Program-made: the position numbers and the translations under genes
Shown here: positions 18,404 to 39,024 of the stretch, piece by piece
Layout: each line of letters begins with the position of its first letter
Numbering within the stretch: the stretch's first letter is position 1
Assembly (NCBI GenBank): GCA_003260345.1
Contig: MORC01000001.1
Span: forward strand, 485,895-525,894
DNA length: 40,000 bases
Reading direction: 5' to 3'
Source: Candidatus Gracilibacteria bacterium GN02-873
Lineage (GTDB): Bacteria > Patescibacteriota > Gracilibacteria > BD1-5 > UBA2023
The notes under the pieces: generated by a model
Seen by the model: the letters and a program-made list of their open reading frames with translations, nothing else
Database searches by the model: none
What the model was told of the DNA's origin: nothing

Positions 18404-18406
18404 ACT

Positions 18407-18892: not shown

Positions 18893-18895
18893 ATT

Positions 18896-19897: not shown

Positions 19898-19921
19898 AAA
19901 ATTCCCCAAAGTGGGGATTTT
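19898..19921. terminator. bidirectional hairpin terminator (murG / mtnN)
   Basis: aaaaat-tcccca-aag-tgggga-ttt lies between convergent genes. Confidence 0.55.
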
Positions 19922-20609: not shown

Positions 20610-20614
20610 AAATA

Positions 20615-22180
20615 TTATTTAAAAATTGACCCCAAAATTCCGCGCGCAATTTCTGCACCAATGCTCCCCATGCGGCGGCCACCAATTTTTGTGCCAACCG
20701 AACGAGCAATTTCTTTGCCAAAAGTTTTTGTCACACTTTCGACGATTGCATCGGTCATCGTTGGATTTTTTCGGCGTTCTTTTTCAGTCATGATTCGTGC
20801 TTTTTCAGCTTCTTCCTCTCTTTTTTGAGATTGAATCATCATCATTTTTTGTGCCAAAATTTCCTGCGCACTCTCAGGGTTTATTGGATTTTTATACGAA
20901 GCAAAAATTGGAGAAATACTCAAAAACGAGGCCAGTTCAGCATCAGTAATGGTATCCATTCTTGATTCTGGTGGGAAAATTTTTGTCATCACAAGGGGCG
21001 TCGGATTACCATTTTCACCAATTGTTGTGACAAACGCTTCACCCGTCCCAAGAGTAGTCAGATTTTTTTCGATATCATAAAACTCTGAAACCGGAAAATT
21101 TTTCGCCATTTTTTTGATAGATTCGTTGTCTTTGGCAGTAAAAGCCCTGAGAGCATGCTGAATTTTGAGCCCCAATTGTGACAAAATAATTTCAGGAATA
21201 TCCATCGGATTTTGCGTACAGAAAATCACACTCACGCCCTTGGATCGAATCAATTTGATAATCACCTCAAATTCTGACAAAATTTCATTCGGCAAATCAC
21301 GAAAAAGCAAGTGTGCCTCATCAATAATTACCACCAATTTTGGCTTGGAAATATCTCCAATCTCAGGCAGCGTCCCAAATAATTCAGTCAAAATCTGAAT
21401 CATCATCGTGGAAAAAAGTTGCGGATAACGAAGCGAATTCATCAATCGAATAATGTTGATTTGCCCTTTTCATTCATCATCAACGCGCATCAAATCACTC
21501 ATATCCAAGGATTTTTCACCAAAAAATTGCGAAGCACCCTGAGATTTAAGTACAATGATTTGTCGCATAATCACCTGAATGGTTGCCTGCGAAATCTGTC
21601 CATATGAAGCTAATTCATTTTTTCCATCTGTTGCCAAAAATGACAAAAGCGTTTCTAAGTCTTCCAAATCAACGAGCAACAAACCATGATCATCTGCATA
21701 TTTAAAAATAATTGTCAGAGCGGCAGTTTGTACTGAGGAAAGTCCCAAGACACGAGCAAATAAAAATGGTCCAAATTCTGAAACGGTTGACCGAACCTGA
21801 GCACCTCATTCATTCAAAAGTGAAAAAAATTCTACCGGAAAGCCCCTTGCCTGCCATTCCAAATCACCAAATTTATCAATATATTTTTGTAATTTTTCAG
21901 AATATTCTCCAGGCATAGAGAGCCCCGAAATATCACCCTTAATATCCATCATCACACTCGGAACTCCTGCATCAGAAAGGCGTTCCAAAAGTTTCTGAAT
22001 AGTCTTCGTTTTTCCTGTTCCAGTTGCCCCCGTAATAAGCCCATGGCGATTCAAAGTTGACAAAGGAATACTCACATGAGTATCAGAAAAAATTTCATTT
22101 TCATAAAGAGCAACACCAATGTCGATATGCTCACCAGAAAAATTATAATTTTCCTGAATGTTTTGAGAAAAATTTTTCAT
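20615..22180 (-). CDS. HerA/YjgR-like P-loop NTPase (DUF853 family)
   Basis: Track ORFs 20615-21445, 21470-21748 and 21806-22180 join across TGA at 21470 and 21806. Walker A GATGTGKTKT and Walker B VVIIDEAHLLF are present, and the length (521 aa) and order fit the family. Confidence 0.8.
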
Positions 22181-22183
22181 ATT

Positions 22184-22663
22184 TTATTCACTAATAATTT
22201 CTACTTTTTCAATCACTGCATCTATTTTTGGGCGATCATTGTGATCCGTTGGTAAACGCTCAATATCATCCACCACATCCATTCCAGAAATTACTTGACC
22301 AAAAATCGTATGCTTGCGATCAAGAAAGCTCGCATTATCCATCGTTACAATGAAAAATTGCGAACCATTCGTATTTCGACCCGCATTCGCCATAGAAAGC
22401 ATGCCTCGTTTGTGCGTCAATGAAAAAGTAAACTCGTCTTCAAAATTTTTGTTCCAAATACTACTTCCGCCCATCCCCGTTCCTGTCGGATCGCCACCCT
22501 GAATCATAAAATCCCGAATCACACGATGAAAAATAACGCCATCATAATAGCCATTTTTTGAAAGTCCGATAAAATTTTCTACTGCTTTGGGCGCAAATTC
22601 TGGGAAAAGTTCAAAGGTAATATCACCAAAATTAGTAATCATTTTTACTTGTGGATTTGTCAT
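22184..22663 (-). CDS. ppiB: peptidyl-prolyl cis-trans isomerase, cyclophilin type
   Basis: Uninterrupted 159-aa [40 protein letters not shown] and HTIFGQV are cyclophilin motifs. Confidence 0.92.
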
Positions 22664-22749
22664 AAAATTGTGTTAAAATCCCCTCAAGTATACTCACTTT
22701 TTGAATAAGTCAATTTTGATTTTTTTACAAAAATCTTTACAATGAACGC

Positions 22750-23529
22750 ATGAAAAAAATAATTTCTACTTTTGTGATTCTTGGGACAATTTTTCTGATT
22801 AGTTGCACCAAAACCTCCTCAGATTTTTCAGAGAATTTCACAACTCAACCGAGCGATTCACGAGTTTTTACGCAAGGAATTTTTGTAAAAAATGATCAAA
22901 TTTTTCTGTCTTCTGGGGCGCCAAATTATCTGAGTGGCACACATTCTTCAGTTGGAATTCTTGATAAAAATGGGGTTTTTGAGTCAAAATTTTCGCTCGA
23001 TCCAAATATTTTTTTCGGAGAATGAATCACTGAATTGAATGGGAAAATTTATTTTGTGACTTGGAAAAATCAAAAATGATTTATTTTGGAAGCACAAAAT
23101 TTTGAAAAAATTGGTGAATTTAATTATAAAAATAAGGAATGATGGGGGCTCGCAAGCGATGGCGAGAAAATTTTCATGAGTGATGGAACAGAAAAAATCA
23201 CTATTTTTGATGAAAATTTTAATAAAATTTCAGAAATTTCTGTCCTTGAAAATGGCAAAAAAATCAACAAAATCAACGAACTTGAATATATTGATGGAGC
23301 GATTTTTGCGAATATTTGGCTTACGAATGATGTTGTCAAAATTGATCCAAATTCTGGAAAAGTGCTCGCGCGATGGAATTTTGATTTCCTCAAACATCAA
23401 GAACTTCAAGAAAATCCACAAGCCCAAGAAATGAATGGCATTGCCTTTGACAAGACAAAAAATCAGATCATTCTCACTGGAAAAATGTGGAAAAATCTCT
23501 ATATTTTTGATGCAGATTTTTTCCAATAA
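22750..23529 (+). CDS. glutaminyl-peptide cyclotransferase-like beta-propeller lipoprotein
   Basis: Track ORFs 22750-23025 and 23176-23529 join across TGA at 23023, 23077 and 23140. It has a lipobox-like LISC, and the product reads FTQGIF, FGE-G-ITELNGKIYFVTW, KE-G-WGLASDG, LNELEYIDGAIFANIW, MNGIAFD, ILTGKMW. Confidence 0.75.
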
Positions 23530-23531
23530 AT

Positions 23532-23554
23532 AAAACTCTCTTTCGAGAGTTTTT
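23532..23554. terminator. bidirectional hairpin terminator
   Basis: aaaactctc-tttc-gagagtttt is a perfect 9-bp stem between convergent genes. Confidence 0.65.
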
Positions 23555-23557
23555 CAT

Positions 23558-24565
23558 TTACGCAGATTGTTTGGCAGGTATACGAGTTTTTCGATTCATC
23601 GTTTTTCCAACTGCATTTTTCACACCAATTCCCGTAAGTGCCGTTCCGACAGAATCGTTAATATTGGCACCTTCCTGCTGTTTTTTGAAATATTTTTTCA
23701 TCGTGTCAATACGAGACTGTTCATCATCCATTGAGCGAGAACTTTCAATAGCTTCAGCTTCAAGCTTCGCAAATTTTTCCTTTTCAGAGCGATATTCTTC
23801 CGCCTGATCCAAGAATTTTTGTTTGCGATCAGCAAGTGCTTTTTCCATTTTTTCAAGCTGAAGCAATCCAGCCGTCAAGAAAGAATCAGTATTTTCTGGA
23901 ACTTCAGCAACCAATGTTTCTGTTTCGGATGAGCCAAAAATAGAAGATTTTTCTACATTTTCTGCTGATATTTCTGCCACTGGTGACTGAGTTGATTCAA
24001 GATCATGATCTACAAGAGAAAAAAGTCCTGATTCGGCAGCATTTTCTGCTGCTTCATGATTTTCTTCAGAAATCAGAGAAGTTTCTGGAGTCACCGCTTC
24101 TGGAGTAACAACTTCTGTAACAGAAGTCTCAGTCATAGGAGTTTCATCAAGAAGAGAAATTACCGGAGTTTCTGTCACAAGATTTTCTGAAATTGAAGGC
24201 GCCACTACTGGCGTTTCAACTATCAGAGAGCTTGGTGCGTCGGACGTTACTGATGTAGATTCAACCACTGGCGTTACCACTTCCGTCGCGTCAGAAATAA
24301 TAATCGGAGATTCTGCCGCGGTGACTTCAATCGCAGGTGCTACTTCAGTCACCATATTTTGCGATTCAGCTGCTTTTTGTTGGGTATAGCTTGGCATATC
24401 AGCCGTTACATTTCCCGCAGAAATATTGAGCAATTCATCAATCGCAGGAGGTGTCGAAGTTGTCCCCTGAGACATTCCTGCCATCGGGTCAGTCATAATC
24501 GGAGTAGTATCTTGAGGTGTAGCATTTTTAGAGCCACCACCAAGAAGATCATCAAAAAGTCACAT
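23558..24565 (-). CDS. acidic low-complexity protein with C-terminal coiled coil
   Basis: Track ORF 23558-24496 extends upstream in frame to ATG 24563-65, whose second codon is TGA (M-G-LFDDLLGGGSKN). A T/E/V/S-rich middle is followed by a heptad-like segment (LEKMEKALADRKQKFLDQAEEYRSEKEKFAKLEAEAIE) and a basic tail. Confidence 0.55.
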
Positions 24566-24702
24566 ATTTTTATTTTTAAGAGTAAAATACCCATTCAGAA
24601 TAGCATGTTTTTTTGATAAAAGCAAATATCTCTAAATTTTTCTCATAAAAATAATTGACAGATTTCAAAAATATTTTTTAATACTTTTAATTTTCTCAAA
24701 AA

Positions 24703-24734
24703 ATAAAAAAAATCCCTTCAAAAAGAAAGGATTT
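24703..24734 (-). terminator. rho-independent terminator of ybaB
   Basis: On the minus strand aatcctttc-ttttt-gaagggatt (one mismatch) is followed by a long T-run. Confidence 0.55.
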
Positions 24735-24741
24735 TGAGGAA

Positions 24742-25041
24742 TTACATTCCAGGAATATTGAGACCCATCTGCCCCATCACTCCACGCATACGATCTGCGG
24801 CGATTTCCTGAGCCTTTTTCATTCCCTTGTTTACTGCTTCAGTAACAGCTTTTTCGATTTTTTCTTTATCACCGATAATGGAAGTATCTTCGATCTCAGT
24901 TTTTACCACCTTGAGCTGACCATCAATCGTCACCACGAGTCCATCAACTTCCGCTTCAATGTGCGTATTAGAAAGTTCTTCCTGAATTTTTTGCGCTTGT
25001 TGCTGCAACTTCATCAATTCTTGTGCTTGTTTGAAATCCAT
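24742..25041 (-). CDS. ybaB: nucleoid-associated protein YbaB/EbfC
   Basis: Uninterrupted 99-aa ORF. MKLQQQAQKIQEEL...VEAEVDGLVVTIDGQLKVVKTEI...AVTEAVNKGMKKAQE and the PGM C-terminus are typical of the family. Confidence 0.88.
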   Translation of the reverse strand: MDFKQAQELMKLQQQAQKIQEELSNTHIEAEVDGLVVTIDGQLKVVKTEIEDTSIIGDKEKIEKAVTEAVNKGMKKAQEIAADRMRGVMGQMGLNIPGM

Positions 25042-25065
25042 AATAAAAAATTATAAAACGCGGAA

Positions 25066-25093
25066 ATTATAGAGAAAAAATTTGAAAAAGCAA
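25066..25093 (-). promoter_or_regulatory. sigma70-like promoter for ybaB
   Basis: Minus strand: TTGCTT (25093-25088), N16, TATAAT (25071-25066), 25 nt upstream of the ATG. The -35 lies inside the left 28-bp direct repeat. Confidence 0.55.
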
Positions 25094-25112
25094 ATTTTTA
25101 GGCTTGCATTTT
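25085..25112. repeat. left copy of 28-bp direct repeat (aaaaagcaaatttttAggcttgcatttt)
   Basis: 27 of 28 positions are identical to 29483-29510 in the same orientation. The flanks outside the repeat are unrelated. Confidence 0.85.
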
Positions 25113-25135
25113 AGTTTAAAAGTATTCTATTTTAT

Positions 25136-26119
25136 TTATTTTAAATTTTCTTTAAAAAATATTTCTAACTTATTAAATGGAATGATCCCTGCTTTATTGT
25201 CATAAAAGTCAGTATGTTTAGCATTAGAAATAACAAGTAATTCTTTATTTTCTGTTCCTATAGCTTTATAGGTGTCTTCACTCATATAACGAGAATGAGA
25301 ATTTTCTCCTGCAATAATAAGAGTTGGAACATTGATTTCATTTATATATGATAACAAAGGAAAATTCATAAATGAAAGTAATGTTGTAGCTGTCCAAACT
25401 TGATTAGAAACTGAACGTTCATGAAAACCTCTTGAAGTTTTATAAAAATCTATGTAATCTTTTAAAAATTGTGGAGCTCCTTCAGGTGCAGCTTCAGGTA
25501 AAGGTTGACCTTTGGTAGGTATTCCTGTTTCAGCATCTATCCAACGAAGCTCATTAAGTGAACGCTTCATTTCCAAACGCATTTCAGGTGTATTGCTGTC
25601 AAAATATCCCTTACTAAAAATACGTGACATATCATACATTACTATTGTTGCTACTGCCTTTATACGTGTATCTATAGCTGTAGCATTAAGAGCAAATCCT
25701 CCCCAACCACAAATACCAATAATTCATATTTTTTCTCTATCCACAAAGACTTGAAGTCCCAAACAATCAACAGCAGCAGAAAAATCTTCAGTATTGATAT
25801 CAGGAGAAGCTACATTACGAGGCTCTCCTCCACTTTCACCTGTATAAGAAGGATCAAAAGCCAAAGTTACAAATCACCTCTCTGCCATTGTTTGTGCATA
25901 AAAACCTGAAGCTTGTTCTTTTACTGCTCCAAATCCACCACAAATAGCAAGAGCAGAAAGTTTCTTATCTTCAATATCTTTTGGGAAATATAAATCTCCA
26001 ACAAGATTAATACCATAGCGGTTTTTAAATGATATTTTTTGATGATTAACTTTATCACTTTGTGGAAAAATTTTATCCCAGCAAACATCATACATTGATG
26101 TTTTTTTGTTTGTATTCAT
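25136..26119 (-). CDS. alpha/beta hydrolase (dienelactone-hydrolase / YcjY-like)
   Basis: Track ORFs 25136-25639 and 25874-26119 plus 25640-25873 form one frame across TGA at 25724 and 25874. The product reads AER-G-FVTLAFDPSYTGESGGEPR and KI-G-IIGICGWGG (nucleophile elbow with Cys). Confidence 0.75.
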
Positions 26120-26212
26120 ATTTTTAAACTTTAATTTTATTTATTTTGTAAGTTTCCAATAAATATTTTTTATATTATTATTACTATAATTTTGTTAATA
26201 ATAAAATTTATT

Positions 26213-27004
26213 TTATTTAATTTTTCTGCCCAAATCCTTTCCATAAATACATATTATAATAATAGTTACTATGATAATTATTCCATAGGCTATCATTCCT
26301 TCTCCCAATTCGTATGTAGAGCGTCCACCGGGGTAATTGGTACGAGCCGTATTGGCAATTGTATGACACAAAATAAGTGCAAAGACCGAAGCATAAGTAT
26401 TGTTAAACAACCATACATATAATACTCTAACTGCTACTGTACCAAGCAATCCCCAAATAATAAGCAGAGGTGTTTGTCCTATTTGTATCATAGAATTCAG
26501 ATGCCACAATGCCCAAGGCACTCAAATTATCAATGCTGTCATCAAAGAATTATAATTTTTCTGTAATGCTTCTGTTGCATAAGCCGCATAACCCAATTCC
26601 TCTACGGTTGCTGCTATAAAAAACATAACAATTGTTCCTAACAATGCCATAAGAGAAGGAAAAACAAATTTTTCCACAGAAAATCCTGATAAATCTTGTA
26701 CAATAAATGTCAAAACATACAAAAAAGGAAAGAGAAAGACAGCAACCCACAACCATTTTTTATTTCGTATGCGAGAAATATCAAAAGTACGAGCAAAAAG
26801 ATGTTTAACAGCTTGCGTTCCACCCTCTTTGTATCTCAAAATAGCTGCTGCAATCATAGGTGTAAGTGCGGCTCCAATATCAGTTAGAGGTAAATTATCT
26901 GGTAAATTACTTCCTTGTATATAATATGAGGCAATCCAAAAAGGCAAGCTCATTACCCAAACAAGTATAAAAAATTTCCATGGATGAGAAGGAGTTGTTT
27001 GCAT
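26213..27004 (-). CDS. CPBP family intramembrane glutamic endopeptidase (Abi/CAAX-protease-like)
   Basis: Track ORFs 26213-26521 and 26522-27004 join across the TGA at 26522-24. The protein is multi-pass hydrophobic and carries ATVEELGYAAY (EE..R-type motif 1), ALWHL (motif 2) and LCHTIAN (motif 3). Confidence 0.7.
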
Positions 27005-27119
27005 ATGTATTGTATTTAAAAATTAAAACAGCTTATAAAACAATGTCCAATTAACCATTTGTCACTTCACTGAAATGAAAATTTCTACTTTGGATGAGTC
27101 TCCGTTTTGTGATTTTTCA

Positions 27120-27135
27120 CCATTGATATCAGTGG
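27120..27135. promoter_or_regulatory. imperfect 16-bp palindrome, possible operator
   Basis: ccaTtgatatcaGtgg is symmetric around GATATC with one mismatched pair. It lies in the 189-bp gap upstream of the CPBP gene at 26213-27004. Confidence 0.25.
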
Positions 27136-27193
27136 CTATTTTTAAATAAGTTATAATTATTCTATTGATTTTTTAAAAAAAAGAAAGTTTAAA

Positions 27194-28048
27194 TTACTTA
27201 TTTTGTTGTCTGTCCCTTTTTTTACGAATTTTCCTCAAATACAATCCAACACATAAATATATTGTCAATGGAATTATTCACAAGCTTGGGGAAATCAGCC
27301 AATTGTATTCAGGGGGAATATTTACAAATCCTTCTGAGATAAGTGGATTTAAGGAATCTTCCATTGTGTGCATCAAAACCACTAGCCAAAGCGAACGTGA
27401 AAGGAAAAATATTTCAGTGTACATAATCGTCCAAACTCCAATCACAAAAAATCCTGTTATAACAAACAAAACTTCACCATAAGGGAAAAACTTTGCAAGA
27501 TAAGCATCATCTAAAAATATCAAATAATATGGTAAATGCCAGATTTGCCATACTAAAGCCACAACCAAATATATTAACCATTCATTTTTAGTAAGTTGCT
27601 CCATTTTTACAGTTAAATAGCCTCTCCAAACTGATTCTTCAAATATATTTTTGATAAATTCAGGCAAAAAAGCAGCTGCAAAAATAGGCAAATATGCAAC
27701 AATACTAAATTTGCTTGCATCTGCCCAACCCATCAAATTTCCAAAAAACAATGTTACACCAATTACTACAGGATAGATTGCAAAAGCAAGCAGATACCAA
27801 TAAGTATTTTGTTTGAAATTTGGCTTTATGGGAAGGTCTTTCCAGCCATCTCCTCCAAAAAGACGAAGTAAAATCGTACATAAAAGTGGTGTAGCAATAA
27901 AAATCAAAGCTCCAGGTGATTCCAAATTTGAAGGTTCCCCAAGCAAATTATTTACACCAACACCTATCCAACCACAAATAACAGCAATAAAGCTAAATAT
28001 TGCAACATTTCTAAAAGTTTTTTTATTAGTTTTCATTTTGTTAATCAT
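27194..28048 (-). CDS. CPBP family intramembrane glutamic endopeptidase (second copy)
   Basis: Track ORF 27278-28048 reads through the TGA at 27278-80 to the TAA at 27194-96. Motifs are FEESVWRGY, WQIWHLPYY and VLMHTMEDS. It is multi-pass hydrophobic and overlaps the upstream gene end by 8 nt. Confidence 0.72.
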
Positions 28049-28865
28049 TAGAATTACTATTTATTGGCTTTCCAGATATAAAACTCTTGACTATATTGTT
28101 AAAATCCTCAGCATTGTCCATATTAGCACAATGTCCCGCATTTTTAATGATGACAAGATTACTATTTGTCGGCTCGTCATTGTACCACTGTTTAGCGGCT
28201 TTTATCATTAATTCACTATCTTTCTCACCAACCAAAATTAATAATGGAAAGCTTCTTTGAACAATCCTGTCAGCCATCAACTTGTTTAATCCAGACATAG
28301 TATCAAATGATTTTCTTGAGAAATGTTTCGCACTTTCATAAAGTCGGATTTGCTCAGTTGGATTTATAGCAGAAGTTTTCGCAACATATTTACGAAATGA
28401 ATCCATTGAAAAAATCATTTTAAACAGCCATTTAAAAATTTCTTTGCCTTGTGCTTTGGCAATTTCTTTCTGCTCCTTATTGATATTATAGCCTCCAAGA
28501 GCTGTTAGAGATAATATTTTATCAGGATATTTTAGTGCAAAATCTTGTGCAAGCAATGAACCAAGGGAAACTCAGATAATATGCAGTTTGTCTTTATTCT
28601 CAACTTTGAGAATTTCTGCAATATGTGTGGTAGTGTCAATGAGCTTGTCTTTTGATTTTCCTACACCTGTCAAACCGTGTCCTAACATATCAAGTGTGAT
28701 TACCTGATAATCTTGGGAGACGAAATCTATCTGTTTATCAAAACATCTGTGATCACTAAAAGCAGGATGCAGAAAAACTATTGTTTCTCCACTCTCTTTT
28801 CCACTCACATAATAATGAATAGTATTTCCATTATTTTCTATAGTCTTGTGTTTCATATTATTCAT
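28041..28865 (-). CDS. alpha/beta hydrolase (GxSxG serine hydrolase)
   Basis: Track ORFs 28041-28556 and 28572-28865 join across the TGA at 28572-74, which supplies the first Gly of the elbow HII-G-VSLGS. VFLHPAFSDHRCF is the oxyanion region, and the C-terminal NAGHCANMD carries the catalytic His. Confidence 0.8.
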
Positions 28866-28871
28866 ATTTTT

Positions 28872-29405
28872 TTAATTATAATCTCTAATAATCTCCAAAA
28901 TCTTCTCTTCATCATAAACAAACATTCCAACAGCTACCAGAGAAGCTATACCATGAGCCAACATCCATGATCTAGAAAAAATATTTTTTATTCCTTTATC
29001 AGACATTTTTTGAAAATCCTCAGTATTTTTCATTAACTCTATAACTTCCTCATTTTCAGGAATAATATCAGTCATTTTCACTTTCATAATATTGTCTATA
29101 TAAACTGCTTTGAATAGAGCAGGTTCGATGTGAGCCATATGCACATATCCAAGCCCCAAGTCCAAAAATGGATTGCCTGTTTTTTTGTATTGACACATAG
29201 TATTTTTGAGATGTGACAAAGCTTTTTGACAAACTTCAGCTTTGAGATCATCCATATTTTTGTATGACCAATAAATCGGTTGTGTAGAACAACCTATTTT
29301 CTTAGCAATATTTCGAGCTGAAAGCACTGCAAATCCTTCTTTTCTAACCATTTCAAAGGCTGTCTTTATAATGATTTCTTTGGTAATTGTCATCGATTTT
29401 GGCAT
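28872..29405 (-). CDS. TetR/AcrR family transcriptional regulator
   Basis: Uninterrupted 177-aa ORF with the N-terminal TetR HTH IIKTAFEMVRKEGFAVLSARNIAKKIGCSTQPIYWSYKNMDDL. Confidence 0.85.
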   Translation of the reverse strand: MPKSMTITKEIIIKTAFEMVRKEGFAVLSARNIAKKIGCSTQPIYWSYKNMDDLKAEVCQKALSHLKNTMCQYKKTGNPFLDLGLGYVHMAHIEPALFKAVYIDNIMKVKMTDIIPENEEVIELMKNTEDFQKMSDKGIKNIFSRSWMLAHGIASLVAVGMFVYDEEKILEIIRDYN

Positions 29406-29431
29406 ATTTTTAATATTATAACTTATGTAAT

Positions 29432-29445
29432 ATAACAGCTGTTAT
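29432..29445. promoter_or_regulatory. perfect 14-bp palindrome, candidate TetR operator
   Basis: ATAACAGCTGTTAT lies 6 nt downstream (minus strand) of the predicted -10 and 26 nt upstream of the tetR ATG. Confidence 0.45.
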
Positions 29446-29451
29446 GCAATA

Positions 29452-29479
29452 ATAATATTAAAATCTAAAAAAATGTCAA
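29452..29479 (-). promoter_or_regulatory. sigma70-like promoter of the TetR cassette
   Basis: Minus strand: TTGACA (29479-29474), N16, TATTAT (29457-29452). Confidence 0.5.
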
Positions 29480-29482
29480 AAT

Positions 29483-29510
29483 AAAAAGCAAATTTTTTGG
29501 CTTGCATTTT
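29483..29510. repeat. right copy of 28-bp direct repeat (aaaaagcaaatttttTggcttgcatttt)
   Basis: 27 of 28 positions are identical to 25085-25112. Confidence 0.85.
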
Positions 29511-29529
29511 TCACAAAAAAATTTATAGT
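29502..29529 (+). promoter_or_regulatory. sigma70-like promoter for the lapA-like gene
   Basis: TTGCAT (29502-07, inside the right direct repeat), N16, TATAGT (29524-29), 19 nt upstream of the ATG at 29549. Confidence 0.4.
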
Positions 29530-29548
29530 GTGAAAAATAATTTTTTCT

Positions 29549-29836
29549 ATGTCACGTTTTTCTCTCAAAAATATTTCATTTTCACAGATTCTTGGAATCA
29601 TCGCGCTCGTTTTGCTCATCACATTCGTCATGCAAAATCTCAGTAACGTGTCTGTCAAATTCATTCGTTGGACTTTTGATATTCCCATTTTTTTGCTAAT
29701 TATTATTGTATTTTTTGTTGGTTTTTATACGTCCATTTTTACTGGTTCTGGTCTTGAAAAATTTTTTAAGAAAAAAGAAACCTACGAGGTTGATCTGAAA
29801 AAAATCTCTGAAAATGCCAAAAATACTGAAAAATAA
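29549..29836 (+). CDS. LapA-domain (DUF1049) small membrane protein
   Basis: Uninterrupted 95-aa ORF with two hydrophobic helices flanking QNLSNVSVKFIRWTFDIP, as in the LapA/DUF1049 domain. Confidence 0.6.
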   Translation: MSRFSLKNISFSQILGIIALVLLITFVMQNLSNVSVKFIRWTFDIPIFLLIIIVFFVGFYTSIFTGSGLEKFFKKKETYEVDLKKISENAKNTEK

Positions 29837-29858
29837 AATCCCCATTTGGGGATTTTTT
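29835..29858. terminator. bidirectional hairpin terminator
   Basis: aaaatcccc-attt-ggggatttt plus tt lies between convergent genes. Confidence 0.65.
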
Positions 29859-30126
29859 ATACATATTTGAGAGCGATTTCTATGCTTTCACGAGCCGTTT
29901 CGTGCTGATTCACAAAAAGATTGTACGCGCCATCTTCGGACAAAACTCCACACGCAACTTCTGATGGAATAGCACCATTATTGAATGCGTCAGAATCTTC
30001 AAACCACTTAGCAGAACTATAATATTCTGACAATTTTTGGAAATTTTCAAAATTTTCGAGCCATTTTTGTTGAGCGTCTTGAAGATTTTCCAGGATTTTT
30101 TGTGTTTCATTGAGAATTCGTTCCAT
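29857..30126 (-). CDS. DUF4298-like small protein
   Basis: This is the C-terminal 89 codons of track ORF 29857-30312, starting at ATG 30124-26. The rest of that ORF overlaps murI. YYSSAKWFEDSDAFNNGAIPSEVACGVLSEDGAYNL matches the DUF4298 core (YY.S..W..D...G.lp....GVLSED..Y). The start is uncertain. Confidence 0.55.
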   Translation of the reverse strand: MERILNETQKILENLQDAQQKWLENFENFQKLSEYYSSAKWFEDSDAFNNGAIPSEVACGVLSEDGAYNLFVNQHETARESIEIALKYV

Positions 30127-30166
30127 CTCAACAATGCGATCAATTTGTTTTGGTTCATAATTATTA

Positions 30167-30883
30167 TTAGGAAATATTAATAAATTTTTGATTTTTTGAA
30201 AGCATTTTTTCAATTTCTGGATGTCTTTCAAGATACGAAACAAATTGAAGAGCGGACTCATAAGACGGATTGACAATTTTTTGTTGTGGGAAAATCTTTT
30301 CAAAAATATCAATTATATAACTATAATGCGTGCATCCAAGAACAATTGCATCCACTGAAAAATCAATTTTTCCCACCGTTTTTTGAATATATTTTTCTAA
30401 AAAATCACGAGAAATTTTTTTCTGTAAAAATTGTTCAATAAAGCCAGCAAGTTCTGGCAAAGCAATTTCCTGCACTTGAATATTTTCATCAAGCAAATGA
30501 ATTCTTTTTGTGTATACAAGACTATTTACAGACGATTTGGTCGCAAAAATAACGACTTTTTTACAACGCAAGTCAAAAATTTTTTCAGCTCATGGAATTG
30601 TGACACCAAGAATCTTTACTCACAAAATTTTTTCGTTTTTTTGTAAAATTTTTATAGCGTTCGCGGTCGCGGTATTGCATGCTAAAATAATAATTTTTAC
30701 ACCCGCATTTTTTAATTTTAGAACACCTTCTGTTGTGAGTTGTATAATTTCTTGAGAATTTTTGTTGCCGTATGGGCAATTTTTGTAATCTCAAAAATAT
30801 ATGTAATCATATTCTGGAAGCAATTTTTTCACTTCATTATAAAATGTCAAACCGCCACTGCCAGAATCAAAAATTCCTATCAT
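30167..30883 (-). CDS. murI: glutamate racemase
   Basis: The ATG at 30881-83 and track ORF 30167-30571 form one frame across three TGA. The product reads [46 protein letters not shown]. Confidence 0.88.
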
Positions 30884-32808
30884 ACTATTTTTTGTTCAAT
30901 TTCGGCAATAATTTGTATATTTTCCAAAGTACTGGCATCGCCCGAAAATTTCTCACCATTTGCAAGTGTCCTGAGAATTCGGCGAACAATTTTCCCACTG
31001 CGAGTTTTTGGTAATTCAGAAATAATCACAATATTTTTGAGTGCAATGATTGGTCCGATTTCCCTTCTGAGTGATAAATTGATATTTTTGAGCAAATCAG
31101 GCTCATTGATATTTTCACCATTTTTCAACACCACAAAACCAAAAAGTGCTTCTCCAGTCATATTGTCAGGAATTCATACTAATGCACACTCAGCTACCAA
31201 TTCATCTTTTGCAACTATGTCTTCCACTTCAGCAATTCAAATTTTATGCCCTGAAATATTGACTATATCATCAACTCTTCCAGTTATAAAAATATATCAA
31301 TCTTCATCATAAAATCAGCCATCTCCAGAAAAATACAAAGCTTTTTCCTCTCTAAAAATATCTGAAAAATATGTTTTTTCAAATTTTTCATCATCTCACC
31401 AAATTCCGCGAGCCATAGCTGGCCAAGGCTTTGAAATCACGAAAAATCAATTTTCTTCAAGTCCTAATTTTTTTCAATTTTTATCCACTATTTCCCCACA
31501 AACTCCAGGCAAGGGAAATGTTGCAGATCTTTTTTTCATAGGAGTTGCAAATGGAAGAGGAGAAAGAATATGTCACCCAGTTTCTGTTTGCCAATAAGTA
31601 TCAACAATAGAGGCTTTTTTGTTTCCTACTACTTCAAAATACCAATCCCAAGTTTCACCATCAATCGGTTCTCAAACACTTCATAAAACTTTTAGACTTG
31701 AGAGATCAAAATTTTTTGGTAAATTTTCTCAAGTTTTATGTAATAATCTAATCAAAGTTGGTGCTGTATAAAATTTTGAAACTTTGTATTTTTCTATGAT
31801 TTGCCAGATTCTGTCATTTTCTGGAAAAAGTGGATTTCACTCATAAATAAGAGTTGTTCAGCCATTTAAAAGTGGTCCATAAACAGTGTAAGTATGCCCT
31901 GTAATCCAACCAATATCTGCAGTTGAGAAAAAAATATCATCTTTTTGTAAATCAAAAACCCATTTTGTTGTAAGTTTTGACCAAAGAGCATATCAGGCTG
32001 TTGAATGAATAATTCATTTTGGTTTTCCTGTTGAACCGGAAGTATACAAAATAAAGCTTGTATCTTCACTGTCTAGCCTTTCAAAATCACAAATCTCACT
32101 TTGAGAATCTATCAAGTCATTGTAAATAACATCATTTTCAGAAATATTTATTTTTTCAAAATTTCTTTTTACAACAAGCACTTTTTGTACTTTATGATTT
32201 GAATTTTTTAAAGCTTCATCAGCAATATTTTTTAAAAAATAAGGTTTTCACTTTCTAAAAGCTCAATCAGCAGTGATTAAAAAATCTGCTTTTAAATCTT
32301 CTATTCTATCTTTTAAGCTTTCTGCTGAAAAACCTCAAAAAACTACTGAATGTATAGCTCACAAACGTAAACAAGCTAGCATTAAATAAACGCTTTCTAG
32401 TATTTGAGGCATATAAAAAATAACTCTGTTTCATTTTGTAACTCACAAACTTTTTAGTAAATTTGCTGATTTATTTACATTTTTTGATAATTCTTTGTAA
32501 GTTATTTCTTGGCTATCTCATCTTTCTCACTCAAAAATAATCGCAATTTTTTCAGCATTTTCTTCTAGATTTTTATCTACTGCTTCATAACAAATATTTA
32601 GTTTTCAGTTTTTAAACCATTCTACTTTTGGAAAATTTTTATCATCTAAAATTTCAGTAAAATCTTCAAAAAAAGTGAGATTTTCTTTTGCTTGATTTGC
32701 CCAAAAATCCTCATAATTCTCCATAGAATAATCATACAATTTTTGGTATTCTTCAAAACTTTTAAAATATGCATTTTTTGCAAATTCAGCATTTGGGAAT
32801 ATTTTCAT
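30877..32808 (-). CDS. acs: acetyl-CoA synthetase (AMP-forming)
   Basis: I translated codon by codon from ATG 32806-08 to TAG 30877-79, giving 643 aa with 25 in-frame TGA. The sequence is collinear with E. coli Acs: [73 protein letters not shown]. It overlaps the murI start by 7 nt. Confidence 0.92.
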
Positions 32809-32848
32809 AGATTTTTTTAAAAAATATTTTTCATATTATAATTATAAT

Positions 32849-33427
32849 TTATAAAATTAAAATATTTTTTTGAATGATAAATTTTTCTTGGCGCAAAAAT
32901 TTTTCAGTTTCCTTTCGTAGTGGCAGTGTCACGAGAAAACCAAGCACTGCACCCGAAGTATTGAGCATCAAATCATCCACATCAAACAAACGATATGGGC
33001 ATTCGAAAAATCCAAACACGCCTGTTCCCTGCGTTAATTCAAAAAATAATGCGATGAAAAACGAAAAAATCAGTATTTTAAGAAAATTCCAACGAAAAAC
33101 AATGCTTCCCAAAAATCCAAGTGGCGAAATCAGAAGAATGTTAAAAATCACCTGAAAAAGCGCCTTACTGCGTGCTAATCCGACAGAATGTTTGGTTGCA
33201 AAAGCTGAATATCTTCAATAAATTGAAACGGCGTAAACTGTCAATCCAACATCCAGCGCGCTCAGCACAAAAATCTTGTGAAAAATCTGGAAACGGAAAA
33301 AGCACGAGCCCAAGCGCCAACAAAAGAAAAACATAAATAAATAAGTTCCCATTTTTTCAAAAATGGAAATACTTTTCTTTTTCAATAAAAAATGTGAAAT
33401 AACGACCGTAAGAGGGAAAGTGAACAA
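32849..33427 (-). CDS. VanZ-like membrane protein
   Basis: Track ORFs 32849-33151 and 33215-33427 join across the TGA at 33215-17. NILLISPLGFLG, ELTQG, RLFDVDDLMLNTSGAVLGF fit the VanZ pattern (N..lF.PlG ... E..Q ... R..d..D...N..G..lG). The start (TTG 33427 or internal ATG) is uncertain. Confidence 0.65.
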
Positions 33428-33487
33428 AAATAAAAACCCACTCTACCCTATCAGACCGATAAAATATGAAAGATAGGAAAAAATCCT

Positions 33488-33778
33488 TTAAATGATAAAA
33501 TCTTCACCAACCTTGCCATTCTCAATAACAATCCCATCGGCTTCGAGTTTTTGGATTTTTTCGGGCACACCACCAGGCGTCGTATAGCCAGAAATTTTTC
33601 GAGAATGCGCCACAACTTTATAGCACGGATAAATATCTGGATGCTTATTGTGACGCATCGCACTCGCAACCACTCGCGGATGAACTCAAAATTTTTCGGC
33701 AATATTTTTGTACGTGGAAACTTTTCCTTTTGGGATTGTTTGAAGATATTCGAGAATTTGTTGACTGATTTTTGACAT
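33488..33778 (-). CDS. MGMT-family (O6-alkylguanine transferase DNA-binding domain only) protein
   Basis: The ATG at 33776-78 joins track ORF 33488-33673 across one TGA, giving 96 aa. IPKGKVSTYKNIAEKF-G-VHPRVVASAMRHN...YPCYKVV matches the Ogt/Ada C-terminal domain, with PCYK in place of PCHR. Confidence 0.7.
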
Positions 33779-33854
33779 AAAATTTTTCTGGATTATAAAA
33801 ATTTTTTCATTTTTTGCAAAAAATTTGAAAAAATCTATTTAAAAGAAAGGAAAT

Positions 33855-33882
33855 ATAAAAAATAACATCCCAAAAACGGGAT
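33855..33882 (-). terminator. possible terminator of miaB
   Basis: On the minus strand atccc-gttttt-gggat is followed by gttattttttat, directly after the TAA at 33884-86. Confidence 0.35.
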
Positions 33883-33883
33883 T

Positions 33884-35923
33884 TTATTCAACCACTTCAC
33901 CTTTGAGAACCCAACGATCAAGTTCTGTAATTTTTACTTTTACAATATCACCGACAGAAATTTTTTCATCAAATGGAATAAAAATTTCTTTAAAATTTCG
34001 CGTGCGCCCAACAAGCGTTTCGTCCTTTCCTGGTCCAGAAATAAGCACTTCTTCCGTTCGTCCAATCATCAATTTGGCGCGTTTTTGAACACTTTCTTGC
34101 AAAAGTGAGTTGAGAATATTCCAGCGACGCGCCTTTTCTTCATGAGAAATATCATCACCAAATTTGTCCGTTGCAATCGTCCCAGAACGCGAAGAGTATC
34201 GTGCAATATACGCAAAATCAAATTCCAATTCTCGCATCGCGCGAACCGTCGCTTGAAATTGTTCTTCGGTTTCACCAGGAAATCCCACAATAATATCAGT
34301 CGAAATAGAAAAAAGTGGATCTTTGGAACGCAAATATTCCACCTGTTTTTTAAAATCTTCATAAGTATGACGGCGATTCATACGCGCCAAAACCTCATCA
34401 GAACCAGACTGAAGAGCAAAATGCAAATAATGACACATTTTTGAAAGCTCAAAATGTGCATCCAAAATATCGCGCGTCATGTCGTGCGGATTTGAGCTTG
34501 TAAATCGGATTCTATCACCTTTTTCGAGCGTATTCAATTCTTCCAAAAGCATTCTAAATGGTGAATGAGAAAAATTTTCCAAAATTCCCTCAAATTCATC
34601 CCAATTTTTCATAATTTTGAGGCGAGAATTTTCTGAGAAATTTTTGTTGTACGACTGAGAAAAAACAATAGTTTTTGCCTTGGTGTTCGCTAAATATCGT
34701 TCGATATGATGGGGTGCGTCATCGATTACGACATCAAACCCCAACTTGAGAGCAATATCAGATTTATCATCAGAATCCCCAAATTCCTCTGTGTAACAAA
34801 TTTTTTCAAAAAAATCCTTGCCAAAATATTTTTCCAAATATTTTTCTGTTTGATTTTTTAGAGAAAGTGGCCGAGAAGTAACGATATAAAGCGAGTGTCC
34901 GTTATTTTTTAATTTTTGTAAAACCTCGCGACAATGTTCATAAATTTTGAGATTATCATGATTTTCATAAAAATATTCAAACCATGCCTCACGAAGCGTC
35001 GGATCACCATTAAAATCGTGCGTCAAAATATCATCAATCGTGAGATTTTTGTGATGTTTTTGATTGTATCGATCGAGCAATTCTGACTCCCAAGTATGCA
35101 AAATCGTATCATCAATGTCGATTCCAATGCGGAAAATTGGGTTATTCCATTTACTTTTTTCTGCATTCCAATTTTTTCGATCGATAAATTGTTTTCCGTA
35201 ACTATTCACATTTTGCCCAAGAAGCGTGATTTCTTTGGTTCATTTTTCAAAAACATCGCGCGCTTCCGCCACGATATCAGCAATGGGGCGAGAAATTTCA
35301 CGACCGCGAGTATGTGGCACAATACAAAAAGTACAAAAATTATCACATCCCGTCTGAATAATAATATTCGCAGACGCTGGATTTTCTTGCAGTTGTTTTA
35401 CTGCCAAATATTCATTAAATTTAGCATCATTTCCAATTTCTTCGCCAGAAATCAACGACAAAATTTTCGTCAACATCGTGATTTCTTCGATTCGAAAAGT
35501 AAAATCGATTTTTTCTGAACGAATAAAAAGCTCATCATCATAATTAAAAAGCCCACTTTCGTCAGGCAAAAGCGTGATTTTGGTTGTGTTATTTCGAGCA
35601 AATTTTTCATCCAATTTTCCTTCTTCATCAACCAAATATCGACGTGCCAATCAGGATTTTCGAACCATACAACCCGTAATTCCAAAAAGTGGCGTTTTCC
35701 CTGTCTGATTTTTTTTGTGAAATCGATGAATTTCGTTCATAAAGCCAAAAACGCGATCTTCCCCTTTTTGTCGCACACTACAAGTATTCATAATCACGAT
35801 ATCCGCCTTCACTGGATCAATCACCTTTCGCATTCCTGACGAAATCAAGATCATATTGATTTTTTCGCTATCCGCGTAGTTCATCTGACATCCAAAAGTC
35901 TTTATATAAAAGGTTTTAAACAT
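33884..35923 (-). CDS. miaB: tRNA-2-methylthio-N6-dimethylallyladenosine synthase (MiaB-type) with inserted HAD/NT5C-like domain, 679 aa
   Basis: Track ORFs 35651-35923, 35240-35650 and 33884-35209 form one frame across TGA at 35651 and 35240, and the 10 gap codons have no stop. Motifs in order are [54 protein letters not shown], [insert], [34 protein letters not shown] and a TRAM-like end ([10 protein letters not shown]). Confidence 0.85.
34562..35185 (-). other. in-frame ~208-codon insert encoding an NT5C/HAD-type nucleotidase-like module within miaB
   Basis: HAD motif I is IGIDIDDT (DxDxT), motif II is YIVTSRP, and motif III/IV is K...[10 protein letters not shown], followed by the tail VFSQSYN...KNWDEF. 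The order and spacing resemble 5'(3')-deoxyribonucleotidase (YorS/NT5C) proteins. Confidence 0.6.
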
Positions 35924-38978: not shown

Positions 38979-39024
38979 TTTCAAAATTCTCTCGACTTTT
39001 CAGAAAAATTCATATACTAAAAAT

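What the first reader, a model, noticed from the sequence alone, without database searches (positions are those of the whole stretch)
25085..29510. A 4.4-kb accessory cassette bracketed by 28-bp direct repeats that duplicate a divergent promoter
aaaaagcaaattttt[A/T]ggcttgcatttt occurs at 25085-25112 and 29483-29510, 27/28 identical and in the same orientation, with unrelated sequence outside. The left copy carries the -35 (TTGCTT) of a good ybaB promoter (N16, TATAAT). The right copy carries the -35 (TTGCAT) of a lapA-like gene promoter (N16, TATAGT). The simplest reading is that ybaB and the lapA-like gene were once divergent neighbours. On that reading, 4370 bp inserted between their -35 boxes with duplication of the target, so both promoters survive. 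The enclosed five genes differ visibly in codon style from the flanks. The enclosed genes favour T- and A-ending codons, with TTA and ATA common, whereas the flanks use more C-ending codons such as CTC, ATC and CGC. They still contain five in-frame TGA at glycine positions, including the first G of a GxSxG elbow, so any donor also used code 25. I see no integrase, transposase or inverted terminal repeats, so the insertion mechanism is unknown.
Basis: partly seen in the sequence, partly recalled or inferred. Interest (0 to 1): 0.7.

Follow-up and report, generated by a model that had tools for sequence, protein, structure and literature searches.

The report
Foreign operon inserted in shared promoter
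A 4.4-kb five-gene operon, largely borrowed from oral Bacteroidota, sits in some strains of a human-mouth Gracilibacteria species exactly inside the shared promoter of two back-to-back genes; that 28-bp promoter core is duplicated on both sides, and most other strains still show the untouched site.

Summary
The 28-mer occurs only at 25085-25112 and 29483-29510 (27/28 identical; chance expectation 0).

The insertion reading is supported. Twelve independent metagenome contigs and one MAG of the same oral Gracilibacteria (GN02, code 25) carry an empty site: ybaB and the lapA-like gene diverge across 109 bp with one 28-mer. Six contigs and another MAG carry the cassette. Two more distant species also have the empty arrangement, so empty is ancestral. 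The 28-mer is present once or twice per genome, so it is not a dispersed repeat.

The cargo is a TetR-controlled operon with two alpha/beta hydrolases and two CPBP proteases, and it has its own strong promoter. Three genes are 74-83% identical in protein to operons of standard-code oral Bacteroidota such as Capnocytophaga. Their TGA codons align with conserved glycines there, so recoding followed transfer.

The cassette has also moved into other GN02 species at a different locus. That copy carries a stub of ybaB, its promoter and one 28-mer, so the move was imprecise.

I found no integrase, terminal inverted repeats, circular junction or phage/plasmid vector. The most likely history is one illegitimate insertion with target duplication, later spread by homologous recombination. 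This is a well-resolved genomic islet, not a new kind of element.

The parts
25085..25112 (.). Left copy of the 28-bp direct repeat (centre base A at 25100). It carries the -35 of ybaB (TTGCTT, minus strand, 25093-25088).
   Evidence: This copy is A in 5 of 6 other occupied contigs and G in L016.
29483..29510 (.). Right copy of the 28-bp direct repeat (centre base T at 29498). It carries the -35 of the lapA-like gene (TTGCAT, 29502-29507).
   Evidence: This copy is T or G in other occupied alleles. Every empty allele has a single copy with G.
25113..29482 (-). The inserted cassette (4370 bp), absent from empty-site alleles.
   Evidence: In empty locus L017, 1-9962 aligns to window 15150-25112 and 9935-20288 aligns to 29483-39824. 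The single 28-mer aligns to both copies.
28872..29405 (-). TetR-family regulator, first gene of the operon (177 aa; a start at 29393 gives 173 aa).
   Evidence: Pfam TetR_N. It is 74-79% identical to TetR of Capnocytophaga and Tannerella.
29452..29479 (-). The cassette's own promoter: TTGACA (29479-29474), 16-nt spacer, TATTAT (29457-29452). Its -35 lies only 3 bp inside the cassette's right end.
   Evidence: Best promoter-like site in 24600-29900, matching 11 of 12 positions.
29432..29445 (.). Perfect palindrome ATAACAGCTGTTAT between the -10 and the TetR start codon. It is the candidate TetR operator.
   Evidence: Read. The region is conserved in L027-L029 and lies within the stretch homologous to Capnocytophaga (window 28874-29445). 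The operator role is inferred.
28041..28865 (-). Alpha/beta hydrolase (274 aa). The first G of its GxSxG motif is a TGA codon at 28572-28574.
   Evidence: Pfam Abhydrolase_1 and Hydrolase_4. The TGA is GGA in L004, L013 and L019. No close homologue in the Bacteroidota operons.
27194..28048 (-). CPBP (Rce1-like) intramembrane protease (284 aa).
   Evidence: Pfam Rce1-like. It is 70-81% identical to Bacteroidota operon members. The TGA at aa 257 aligns with a conserved Gly.
26213..27004 (-). Second CPBP protease (263 aa).
   Evidence: Pfam Rce1-like. It is only about 26-28% identical to the Bacteroidota CPBPs. The TGA at 26522-26524 is GGA in L013 and L019.
25136..26119 (-). PETase-like alpha/beta hydrolase (327 aa), last gene of the operon. 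Its stop codon lies 23 bp from the left repeat.
   Evidence: Pfam PETase and Abhydrolase_1. It is 79-83% identical to Capnocytophaga and Tannerella proteins. GC3 is 0.137. Within window 25059-25958 five of the six other occupied contigs are identical to the window; L016 and L020 differ by up to 1.7% in single 300-bp bins.
24742..25041 (-). ybaB, the left flanking gene. Its promoter -10 (TATAAT) lies at 25071-25066.
   Evidence: Pfam YbaB_DNA_bd. The exact protein is found on both empty and occupied contigs.
29549..29836 (+). lapA-like small membrane protein, the right flanking gene. Its promoter -10 (TATAGT) lies at 29524-29529.
   Evidence: Pfam LapA_dom at 27.9 bits, just under the cut-off of 28. 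The exact protein is found on both empty and occupied contigs.
24627..25084 (.). Left-flank haplotype linked to the cassette. It is 4-8% diverged from every empty allele and identical in the window, L004, L013 and L019.

Best explanation
**Shown**
- In the ancestral state, ybaB and a lapA-like gene diverge from a 109-bp spacer. Their two -35 hexamers lie back to back within one 28-bp block.
- In some strains a 4370-bp foreign operon sits at that block, and the whole block is present on both sides.
- Each flanking gene therefore keeps a complete -35/-10 promoter. The operon is transcribed from its own TTGACA-N16-TATTAT promoter at its extreme right end.
- The operon order is TetR regulator, hydrolase, CPBP, CPBP, hydrolase.
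- Its backbone (TetR, one CPBP and the 327-aa hydrolase) is closest to operons of standard-code oral Bacteroidota.
- Five glycine codons read TGA. Two of them are still TGA/GGA polymorphic.
- The same cassette occurs in other oral Gracilibacteria species at another locus. That copy carries a remnant of ybaB, the ybaB promoter and one 28-mer.

**Inferred**
- The insertion happened once, in a lineage 4-8% diverged from most of today's population.
- It was an illegitimate event that needed no element-encoded recombinase: a staggered break with fill-in, or a template switch, that duplicated 28 bp of target.
- That particular outcome survived because it left both flanking promoters intact.
- The occupied allele then spread, and was re-shuffled, by homologous recombination through its flanks. 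It persists as a presence/absence polymorphism.
- Later hops to other species were also illegitimate joins at microhomologies.
- The operon's function is probably an inducible esterase/lactonase plus membrane-protease module for detoxification or immunity, derepressed when TetR binds a ligand. No substrate can be named.
For: **Empty and occupied alleles**
- Both forms have exact boundaries.
- Outgroup species L024, L038 and L042 are empty. The L042 block is 24/28 identical to the 28-mer.
- The 28-mer occurs once or twice per genome.

**Foreign origin**
- Protein identity to Capnocytophaga and Tannerella operons is 74-83%. Nucleotide identity to C. canimorsus is about 76%.
- Codon style is atypical.
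- TGA codons align with conserved Gly, and two are polymorphic.
- The cassette's own promoter is the best site in the region, matching 11 of 12 positions.

**Imprecise mobility**
- Context B (L023, L032, L033) is homologous to window 25010-28042 at 96.6%. This includes the first nucleotides of ybaB, its promoter and one 28-mer.
- The right junction in L027-L029 keeps only AAAAAGCAAA of the right copy.
- L027 and L029 share 99.8% identity over 3559 bp of cassette, while their flanks are 74-82% identical.

**No mobility machinery found**
- No integrase or transposase domain in the five cassette proteins or five flanking proteins scanned.
- No terminal inverted repeats and no similarity to dif.
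- No tRNA nearby and no Rfam hit.
- No circular junction among the metagenome hits.
- No phage or plasmid vector.

**Spread by homologous recombination**
- The cassette-linked haplotype at 24627-25084 is 4-8% diverged from every empty allele.
- Flank SNPs and repeat centre bases are mosaic: (A,T), (A,G) and (G,T).
- Identity within the cassette is also mosaic.
Against: - A 28-bp target duplication is longer than known transposases make, and nothing observed shows how it arose. The mechanism is argued by elimination.
- A 28-bp direct repeat with one copy at the empty site is exactly what a site-specific recombinase would leave. Such an enzyme could be encoded outside the window, and I could not inspect a whole genome.
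- No occupied allele has G in both copies, which a fresh duplication of the G-type target would give. This requires later changes at the same position in both copies, or a donor lineage with another base.
- Only about 20 contigs were sampled, from hundreds of index blocks (1060 list the YbaB protein, 442 the LapA-like protein).
- Only assembled contigs could be searched for a circular junction, not reads.
- The direction of the Bacteroidota-Gracilibacteria transfer rests on breadth of distribution and on the TGA barrier, not on a phylogeny.
Confidence: 0.55

Rival explanations
1. The 28-mer is an attachment site. On this reading the cassette is an integrase-less, cis-mobilisable element. A tyrosine or serine recombinase encoded elsewhere in the genome, or by a helper element, inserts and excises it. 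The two copies are attL and attR.
For: - The direct-repeat length, the exact single copy at empty sites and the weak 9-10-9 dyad (AAAAAGCAA-N10-TTGCATTTT) all fit an att core.
- Centre bases (A,G) and (G,T) could arise from crossovers on either side of the centre.
- Public MAG contigs break at the repeats.
Against: - No integrase in the cassette; none of the ten proteins scanned in and beside it is a recombinase.
- No attP junction among the metagenome hits. No copy in viral contigs.
- The 28-mer is found nowhere else in the genomes.
- Every documented move to another species was imprecise and dragged flanking DNA along.
- A cargo of Bacteroidota origin would have had to acquire a 28-bp copy of a Gracilibacteria promoter.
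- All 15 sampled empty sites have G. None has the A or T that excision from an (A,T) allele would leave.
Confidence: 0.15
2. The direct repeat arose by recombination at short homology. A circularised or one-side-anchored DNA fragment already carried one copy of the promoter block next to the cassette, from a lineage where the cassette sat beside ybaB. It joined the recipient at or next to the recipient's own 28-mer. This is Campbell-type or homology-facilitated illegitimate recombination.
For: - The cassette demonstrably travels with the ybaB promoter and one 28-mer attached.
- The occupied allele is linked to about 460 bp of diverged left flank but to 150 bp or less of right flank.
- The right junction in the other species lies at the microhomology AAAAAGCAAA.
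Against: - This explains the spread but not the first association of the cassette with the block.
- No lineage with 'ybaB-28-mer-cassette' lacking the second copy was found at this locus.
- A few linked SNPs also exist on the right flank, as expected from ordinary two-sided homologous recombination.
Confidence: 0.15
3. The occupied form is ancestral, and the empty form arose by deletion between the two 28-bp repeats.
For: Recombination between direct repeats would leave exactly one copy. That product cannot be told apart from an unoccupied site by structure alone.
Against: - More distant species (L024, L038, L042) have lapA and ybaB as divergent neighbours without the cassette.
- The cargo is foreign by homology and codon use.
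- Every empty site has G at the centre. Ten of the fourteen repeat copies in the seven occupied alleles have A or T there.
- The occupied allele sits on a diverged, introgressed flank haplotype.
Confidence: 0.07
4. The 28-mer is simply a recurrent promoter or regulatory motif that happens to precede two transcription units. No insertion took place.
For: The ybaB-side half of the block is conserved upstream of ybaB in several lineages.
Against: - Alleles that differ by exactly the 4370 bp plus one copy exist.
- The motif is absent from the rest of the window, where chance expectation is 0.
- It is present only once or twice per genome.
Confidence: 0.02

Closest known systems
Integrase-less genomic islets flanked by direct repeats (strain-variable accessory operons in integration hotspots; cis-mobilisable elements, CIMEs, as described in Streptococcus thermophilus - from my own knowledge)
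   Same: - A discrete accessory operon, present or absent between conserved core genes.
- Flanked by direct repeats, one of which equals the empty site.
- No recombination genes of its own.
- Atypical composition.
- Lies in an interval (miaB-ybaB) that varies between species.
   Different: - CIMEs are defined by att sites of a known ICE family and by mobilisation in trans. No cognate integrase, ICE or excised form was found here.
- The inter-species moves seen here are imprecise.
TetR-CPBP-alpha/beta-hydrolase operons of oral Bacteroidota (Capnocytophaga canimorsus L025, C. catalasegens L037, Tannerella sp. L036, unnamed oral contigs L034/L035)
   Same: - Same gene order for the backbone: TetR first, then CPBP(s), then the 326-327-aa PETase-like hydrolase last.
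- Protein identity of 74-83%.
- Homology includes 40 bp upstream of TetR, with the palindrome.
- Variable extra genes sit between the backbone genes.
   Different: - Those genomes use the standard code and have GGN where the window has TGA.
- Their G+C is higher (0.375-0.42 against 0.32).
- The window's 274-aa hydrolase and 263-aa CPBP have no close counterpart there.
- The 28-mer is absent there.
Target-site duplications of transposable elements, and repeat duplication by Cas1-type integrases (from my own knowledge)
   Same: The inserted DNA is bracketed by a direct duplication of target sequence. The target has weak dyad symmetry.
   Different: - The duplication is 28 bp, not 2-15 bp.
- There are no terminal inverted repeats and no transposase or casposase.
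- The insert is a complete operon, not a spacer or an IS.
- There is no evidence of repeated use of the site.
Xer-dependent modules (IMEX, pdif modules of Acinetobacter plasmids - from my own knowledge)
   Same: The flanking sites are 28 bp long, the cargo has no recombinase of its own, and the module is small.
   Different: - The dyad is 9-10-9, not 11-6-11.
- Only 8-10 of 28 positions match the E. coli or B. subtilis dif sequences.
- The sites are in direct orientation within a promoter, not at a terminus or on a plasmid.

Membership tests
Genomic islet / horizontally acquired accessory operon | Present in some strains and absent in others at the same chromosomal site, with exact boundaries | tested here: met
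   There are 12 distinct empty and 6 distinct occupied contigs, plus MAGs of both kinds.
Genomic islet / horizontally acquired accessory operon | Composition or codon use differs from core genes, and the closest homologues lie outside the lineage | tested here: met
   ATA is 32-42% of Ile codons against 0-12% in core genes, and GC3 is 0.14-0.26. Three genes are 74-83% identical to Bacteroidota proteins.
Integrative element with a site-specific recombinase (including CIME / mobilisable islands) | Direct repeats (attL/attR) that share a core with a single attB at empty sites | tested here: met
Integrative element with a site-specific recombinase (including CIME / mobilisable islands) | A cognate integrase, either in the element or demonstrably acting in trans | tested here: not met
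   The cassette's five proteins and five flanking proteins have no recombinase domain. Proteins of the rest of the 40-kb window were not scanned against any family library, and the rest of the genome could not be inspected.
Integrative element with a site-specific recombinase (including CIME / mobilisable islands) | An excised circular form (attP junction), or precise transfer between genomes | tested here: not met
   The metagenome scan for the left-junction pattern gave 4 hits, none with the cassette's right end on the left. Transfers to other species carried flank DNA. Reads were not searchable.
DDE transposon / insertion sequence | Terminal inverted repeats and a transposase, with a short target-site duplication (2-15 bp) | tested here: not met
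   The best alignment of the ends scores below the shuffle mean. No transposase domain was found. The duplication is 28 bp.
Xer/dif module (IMEX, pdif) | 28-bp sites with 11-bp XerC/XerD arms around a 6-bp spacer, resembling dif | tested here: not met
   The dyad is 9-10-9, and identity to the E. coli and B. subtilis dif sequences is 8-10 of 28. The dif site of this genome itself is unknown.
Integron gene cassette | A promoterless single gene with an attC site, next to intI/attI | tested here: not met
   This is a five-gene operon with its own promoter. No IntI domain was found among the ten scanned proteins, and the 28-mer does not fold better than shuffled sequence.
TetR-regulated operon | A TetR_N helix-turn-helix protein encoded first, with a palindromic operator overlapping its promoter | tested here: met
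   TetR_N was detected. The palindrome ATAACAGCTGTTAT at 29432-29445 lies 6 nt downstream of the -10. Binding and ligand are not testable here.

The most novel reading that the evidence does not exclude
The cassette may record physical contact between organisms. Oral GN02 Gracilibacteria are presumed episymbionts whose hosts are unknown. They hold an operon whose closest relatives are in plaque Flavobacteriales and Bacteroidales, above all Capnocytophaga (74-83% protein and about 76% nucleotide identity). In a sister species the cassette lies next to an SPFH gene whose nearest named homologues are also Capnocytophaga. On this reading Capnocytophaga or a close relative is the host of these Gracilibacteria. 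The cassette would then show how standard-code host genes are naturalised into a TGA=Gly genome.
Probability: 0.2. Interest if true: 0.75.

Novelty: new member of a known kind. Interest (0 to 1): 0.45.

Why it matters
**What the case shows**
- It is a cleanly resolved gene gain in a candidate-phyla-radiation bacterium of the human mouth. Occupied alleles, empty alleles and outgroup states are all in hand.
- Genes from standard-code Bacteroidota can enter and persist in a TGA=Glycine genome. Recoding from GGA to TGA is visibly under way: two of the five sites are still polymorphic.
- The reverse route would hit stop codons.
- Accessory DNA moves between oral Gracilibacteria species without any element-encoded machinery and drags flank fragments along. 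This fits DNA uptake followed by illegitimate or homologous recombination.

**Practical points**
- The source of the cargo offers a testable lead to the unknown hosts of oral GN02.
- The polymorphism explains why public MAG contigs break at this site.
- The pair of alleles is a natural experiment on how a shared divergent promoter tolerates duplication.

Tried and rejected
1. **Split-gene idea for the second locus.** Removing everything between two copies of TCTAAAATATTT in L028 restores a 391-aa ORF (SPFH-SHOCT plus zinc ribbon). This suggested a second insertion with a 12-bp target duplication. However, the 120 best-listed of 2085 homologues are 312-344 aa long and cover at most 83% of the query. 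The split-gene reading is therefore not supported. The short repeats at that junction (TCTAAAATATTT and ATTTTATAAATTT) remain unexplained.
2. **Terminal inverted or direct repeats inside the cassette ends.** None scored above shuffled sequence.
3. **The 28-mer as a hairpin or cruciform target.** It folds no better than shuffles, with z about +0.7.
4. **The 28-mer as a dif-like Xer site.** Only 8-10 of 28 positions are identical.
5. **A phage or plasmid vector.**
   - No 28-mer in viral contigs.
   - Only distant matches in phage records, about 66-70% identity over at most 10% of the query.
   - The hydrolase family is widespread on plasmids, but at 64% identity or less.
6. **tRNA or structured RNA at the site.** None found.
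7. **One-sided anchoring (homology-facilitated illegitimate recombination) as the origin of the repeat.** The linked diverged haplotype is long on the left (about 460 bp). A few linked SNPs also exist on the right. The asymmetry is therefore suggestive only.
8. **Specific enzyme names for the hydrolases.** All NCBIfam matches are far below their cut-offs. The best is the UilS lactonase model at 71 bits, against a cut-off of 400.
9. **Literature.** Searches found no report on this cassette and no report of a Capnocytophaga host for Gracilibacteria.

Full report
**1. The observation**

The 28-mer is present exactly as described.
- The left copy is AAAAAGCAAATTTTTAGGCTTGCATTTT at 25085-25112. The right copy is AAAAAGCAAATTTTTTGGCTTGCATTTT at 29483-29510.
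- With up to three mismatches these are the only two copies in the 40-kb window. None of 100 shuffles produced a match.
- The genome uses TGA as a sense codon. Under table 25 the interval holds five minus-strand genes:
  - a 327-aa PETase-like alpha/beta hydrolase (25136-26119)
  - two CPBP/Rce1-like proteases (26213-27004 and 27194-28048)
  - a 274-aa alpha/beta hydrolase (28041-28865)
  - a TetR-family regulator (28872-29405)
- The flanks are ybaB (24742-25041, minus strand) and a lapA-like gene (29549-29836, plus strand).
Both -35 boxes match TTGACA at only 3 of 6 positions and were not listed by the consensus scan.
- That scan's best site in the region is the cassette's own promoter: TTGACA-N16-TATTAT at 29479-29452 on the minus strand.
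- This promoter is followed by the perfect palindrome ATAACAGCTGTTAT (29432-29445), a plausible TetR operator.

**2. Empty and occupied alleles**

I looked up contigs that encode exactly the window's YbaB and LapA-like proteins. This returned 18 distinct human-metagenome contigs.
- Twelve have ybaB and the lapA-like gene as divergent neighbours 109 bp apart, with a single 28-mer.
- Six carry the cassette between two 28-mers, with the copies 4328-4483 bp apart start to start.
- In the empty locus L017 the single 28-mer aligns to both window copies. The alignment jumps from 25112 to 29483.
- A scan of one genome per species (185,579 species) for AAGCAAATTTTTNGGCTTGCAT found four hits, all in oral Gracilibacteria:
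  - two in MAG JABCOP02, an occupied allele split over two contigs
  - one in MAG CALHQS01, an empty allele
  - one in GN02-872
- The 28-mer is therefore not a dispersed repeat.

**3. Polarity**

Empty is the ancestral state.
- The divergent lapA-ybaB arrangement without the cassette is found in more distant species.
  - L024 differs from the window by 14.5% over the left 3 kb.
  - L038 has a YbaB 94% identical to the window's.
  - L042 has a YbaB 91% identical, and its block matches 24 of 28 positions of the 28-mer.
- Upstream of ybaB in L039 the same layout recurs (TTGCAT-N16-TATTAT). This supports reading the block as a native promoter.
- The cargo is foreign.
  - ATA makes up 32-42% of Ile codons in the cassette against 0-12% in core genes.
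  - GC3 is 0.14-0.26.

**4. Where the cargo comes from**

- The closest TetR homologues outside Gracilibacteria are in Capnocytophaga, Tannerella and Porphyromonas, at 67-80% identity.
- Their genomic contexts are operons of the same family:
  - TetR-CPBP-hydrolase326 in C. canimorsus
  - TetR-x-CPBP-CPBP-hydrolase327 in unnamed oral contigs
- Protein identity to the window is 79-83% for hyd327, 70-81% for cpbp284 and 74-79% for TetR.
- hyd274 and cpbp263 have no close counterpart there.
- Nucleotide identity to C. canimorsus is about 76%, and it extends 40 bp upstream of TetR.
- The three TGA codons in these genes align with invariant glycines in the standard-code homologues.
- Among the occupied alleles, two of the five TGA positions are TGA in some alleles and GGA in others.
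- The family is broad in Bacteroidota, and TGA would be a stop codon there. I therefore infer transfer from Bacteroidota into Gracilibacteria, followed by recoding. I did not build a phylogeny.

**5. The cassette has moved again, imprecisely**

- In GN02-872 (L023) and two JGI contigs (L032, L033) the left end of the cassette lies next to an unrelated gene.
- Homology to the window is 96.6% and starts at 25010. It includes the first nucleotides of ybaB, its 5' leader (with a deletion), the -10 box, one 28-mer (TTAT variant) and then the cassette.
- This copy therefore derives from an occupied ybaB-lapA allele and took flank DNA with it.
- In L027-L029, which were found through a TetR variant, the same insert has lost the 28-mer and most of hyd327.
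- The right junction in L027-L029 keeps only AAAAAGCAAA of the right copy. That remnant is fused into a strong terminator hairpin.
- L027 and L029 share 99.8% identity over 3559 bp of cassette, while their flanks are 74-82% identical. This points to a recent transfer between species, again with a few flank bases attached.

**6. Population history at the original site**

- Positions 24627-25084 of the window (ybaB and its 3' spacer) are 4-8% diverged from every empty allele. They are identical in the window, L004, L013 and L019.
- Further left, divergence falls to 0-1.3%. On the right, only the first 150 bp carries linked SNPs.
- Other occupied alleles (L007, L016, L020) have empty-type left flanks.
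- The centre bases of the two copies are:
  - (A,T) in the window, L013, L019 and L020
  - (A,G) in L004, L007 and JABCOP02
  - (G,T) in L016
  - G in every empty site
- Within the cassette, the hyd327 gene (about 25059-25958) is identical to the window in five of the six other occupied contigs; L016 and L020 differ by up to 1.7% in single 300-bp bins. The right half is a mosaic of 87-100% identity.
- I read this as an old insertion in a diverged lineage. It then introgressed and was re-shuffled by homologous recombination.

**7. Mechanism**

Nothing that normally moves DNA was found.
- No integrase or transposase in the cassette or in the five flanking proteins scanned.
- No terminal inverted repeats and no similarity to dif.
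- No stable fold of the 28-mer.
- No tRNA or Rfam element nearby.
- No attP-type junction among the metagenome hits.
- No phage or plasmid carrier.

A trans-acting recombinase cannot be excluded, because a whole genome could not be inspected and reads could not be searched. All documented secondary moves were imprecise. I therefore favour a single illegitimate insertion that duplicated 28 bp of target. It was kept because both flanking promoters stayed whole. This step is inferred, not shown.

**8. Function**

- The operon is a TetR-controlled unit with two serine hydrolases and two CPBP membrane proteases.
- NCBIfam gives only sub-threshold matches. The best is a quorum-quenching lactonase model at 71 bits, against a cut-off of 400.
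- An inducible detoxification or immunity role is a reasonable guess and no more.

**9. Comparison with what is known, and verdict**

- This is a strain-variable genomic islet in a variable interval. The miaB-ybaB interval differs between species, and the low G+C runs from about 25000 to about 33500.
- It meets the direct-repeat criterion of integrative elements. It fails the tests for an integrase, an excised form and precise transfer.
- It is not a transposon, an integron cassette or a Xer module.
  1. The whole block with both -35 boxes is duplicated.
  2. The compositional contrast is one-sided.
  3. The ultimate source uses the standard code.
- The case is well documented but belongs to a known kind. 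Its main wider interest is the cross-code gene flow from oral Bacteroidota and the lead this gives to the unknown hosts of oral Gracilibacteria. Those hosts are described as largely unknown in PMC8406219.

Noticed in passing
window 30877-32808: In the acetyl-CoA synthetase gene, 25 of 50 glycine codons are TGA and GC3 is 0.165. Neighbouring genuine genes use TGA for roughly 0-20% of glycines. This suggests separate acquisition from a lower-GC, TGA-rich code-25 lineage. An acs gene also lies beside the cassette in the other species (L027-L029).
   Followed up: partly
window 25042-33884; loci L038, L041, L042: The whole interval between miaB and ybaB differs between related species. In L042 it reads miaB-vanZ-MGMT-lapA<>ybaB. 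In L041 it reads miaB-x-TspO-MGMT-murI-ybaB. In L038, lapA has glycolysis genes as neighbours. The interval coincides with the low-GC block at about 25000-33500, so it is a hotspot for accessory genes.
   Followed up: partly
window 32805-32874; L016 13258-13810; L019 13328-20288: There is a second strain-variable point just downstream of acs. L016 has about 550 extra bp there and a VanZ+RDD fusion gene. L019 is unrelated to the window for at least 7 kb beyond 32874.
   Followed up: no
L027/L028/L029 (reverse-complement coordinates about 5100-5180 and 8615-8700): The junctions of the cassette at its second locus carry short direct repeats (TCTAAAATATTT and ATTTTATAAATTT). The loop of the terminator hairpin AAAAAGCAAAC-N8-GTTTGCTTTTT has TTTTACAA in L027 but TTGTAAAA, its reverse complement, in L028 and L029. 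So the hairpin is inverted between contigs. This is unexplained.
   Followed up: partly
L027 6837-7811, L028 6900-7874: An SPFH/Band_7-SHOCT gene lies next to the cassette in the sister species. Its nearest named homologues are in Capnocytophaga and other Flavobacteriales and Sphingobacteriales, at about 55-59% identity. This may be a second gene of Bacteroidota origin.
   Followed up: no
L021 (JABCOP020000001.1, contig start) and L023 (MOLU01000006.1, contig end): Public MAG and genome contigs end within 97-125 bp of the 28-mer copies. Assemblies probably break here because the cassette is polymorphic within the sampled populations.
   Followed up: no
window 3116-7735: This is a very large minus-strand ORF (about 1500 aa). 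It has an internal duplication of about 1.76-1.84 kb (93-97% identical) and runs of a 12-bp tandem unit (TGGATTTGTTGG). It is probably a repetitive surface protein.
   Followed up: no
window 25100 and 29498: The only variable base of the 28-mer is its centre. It is G in all 15 empty sites. In occupied alleles it is A or G in the left copy and T or G in the right copy. One possibility is relaxed constraint after each copy came to serve only one gene.
   Followed up: partly
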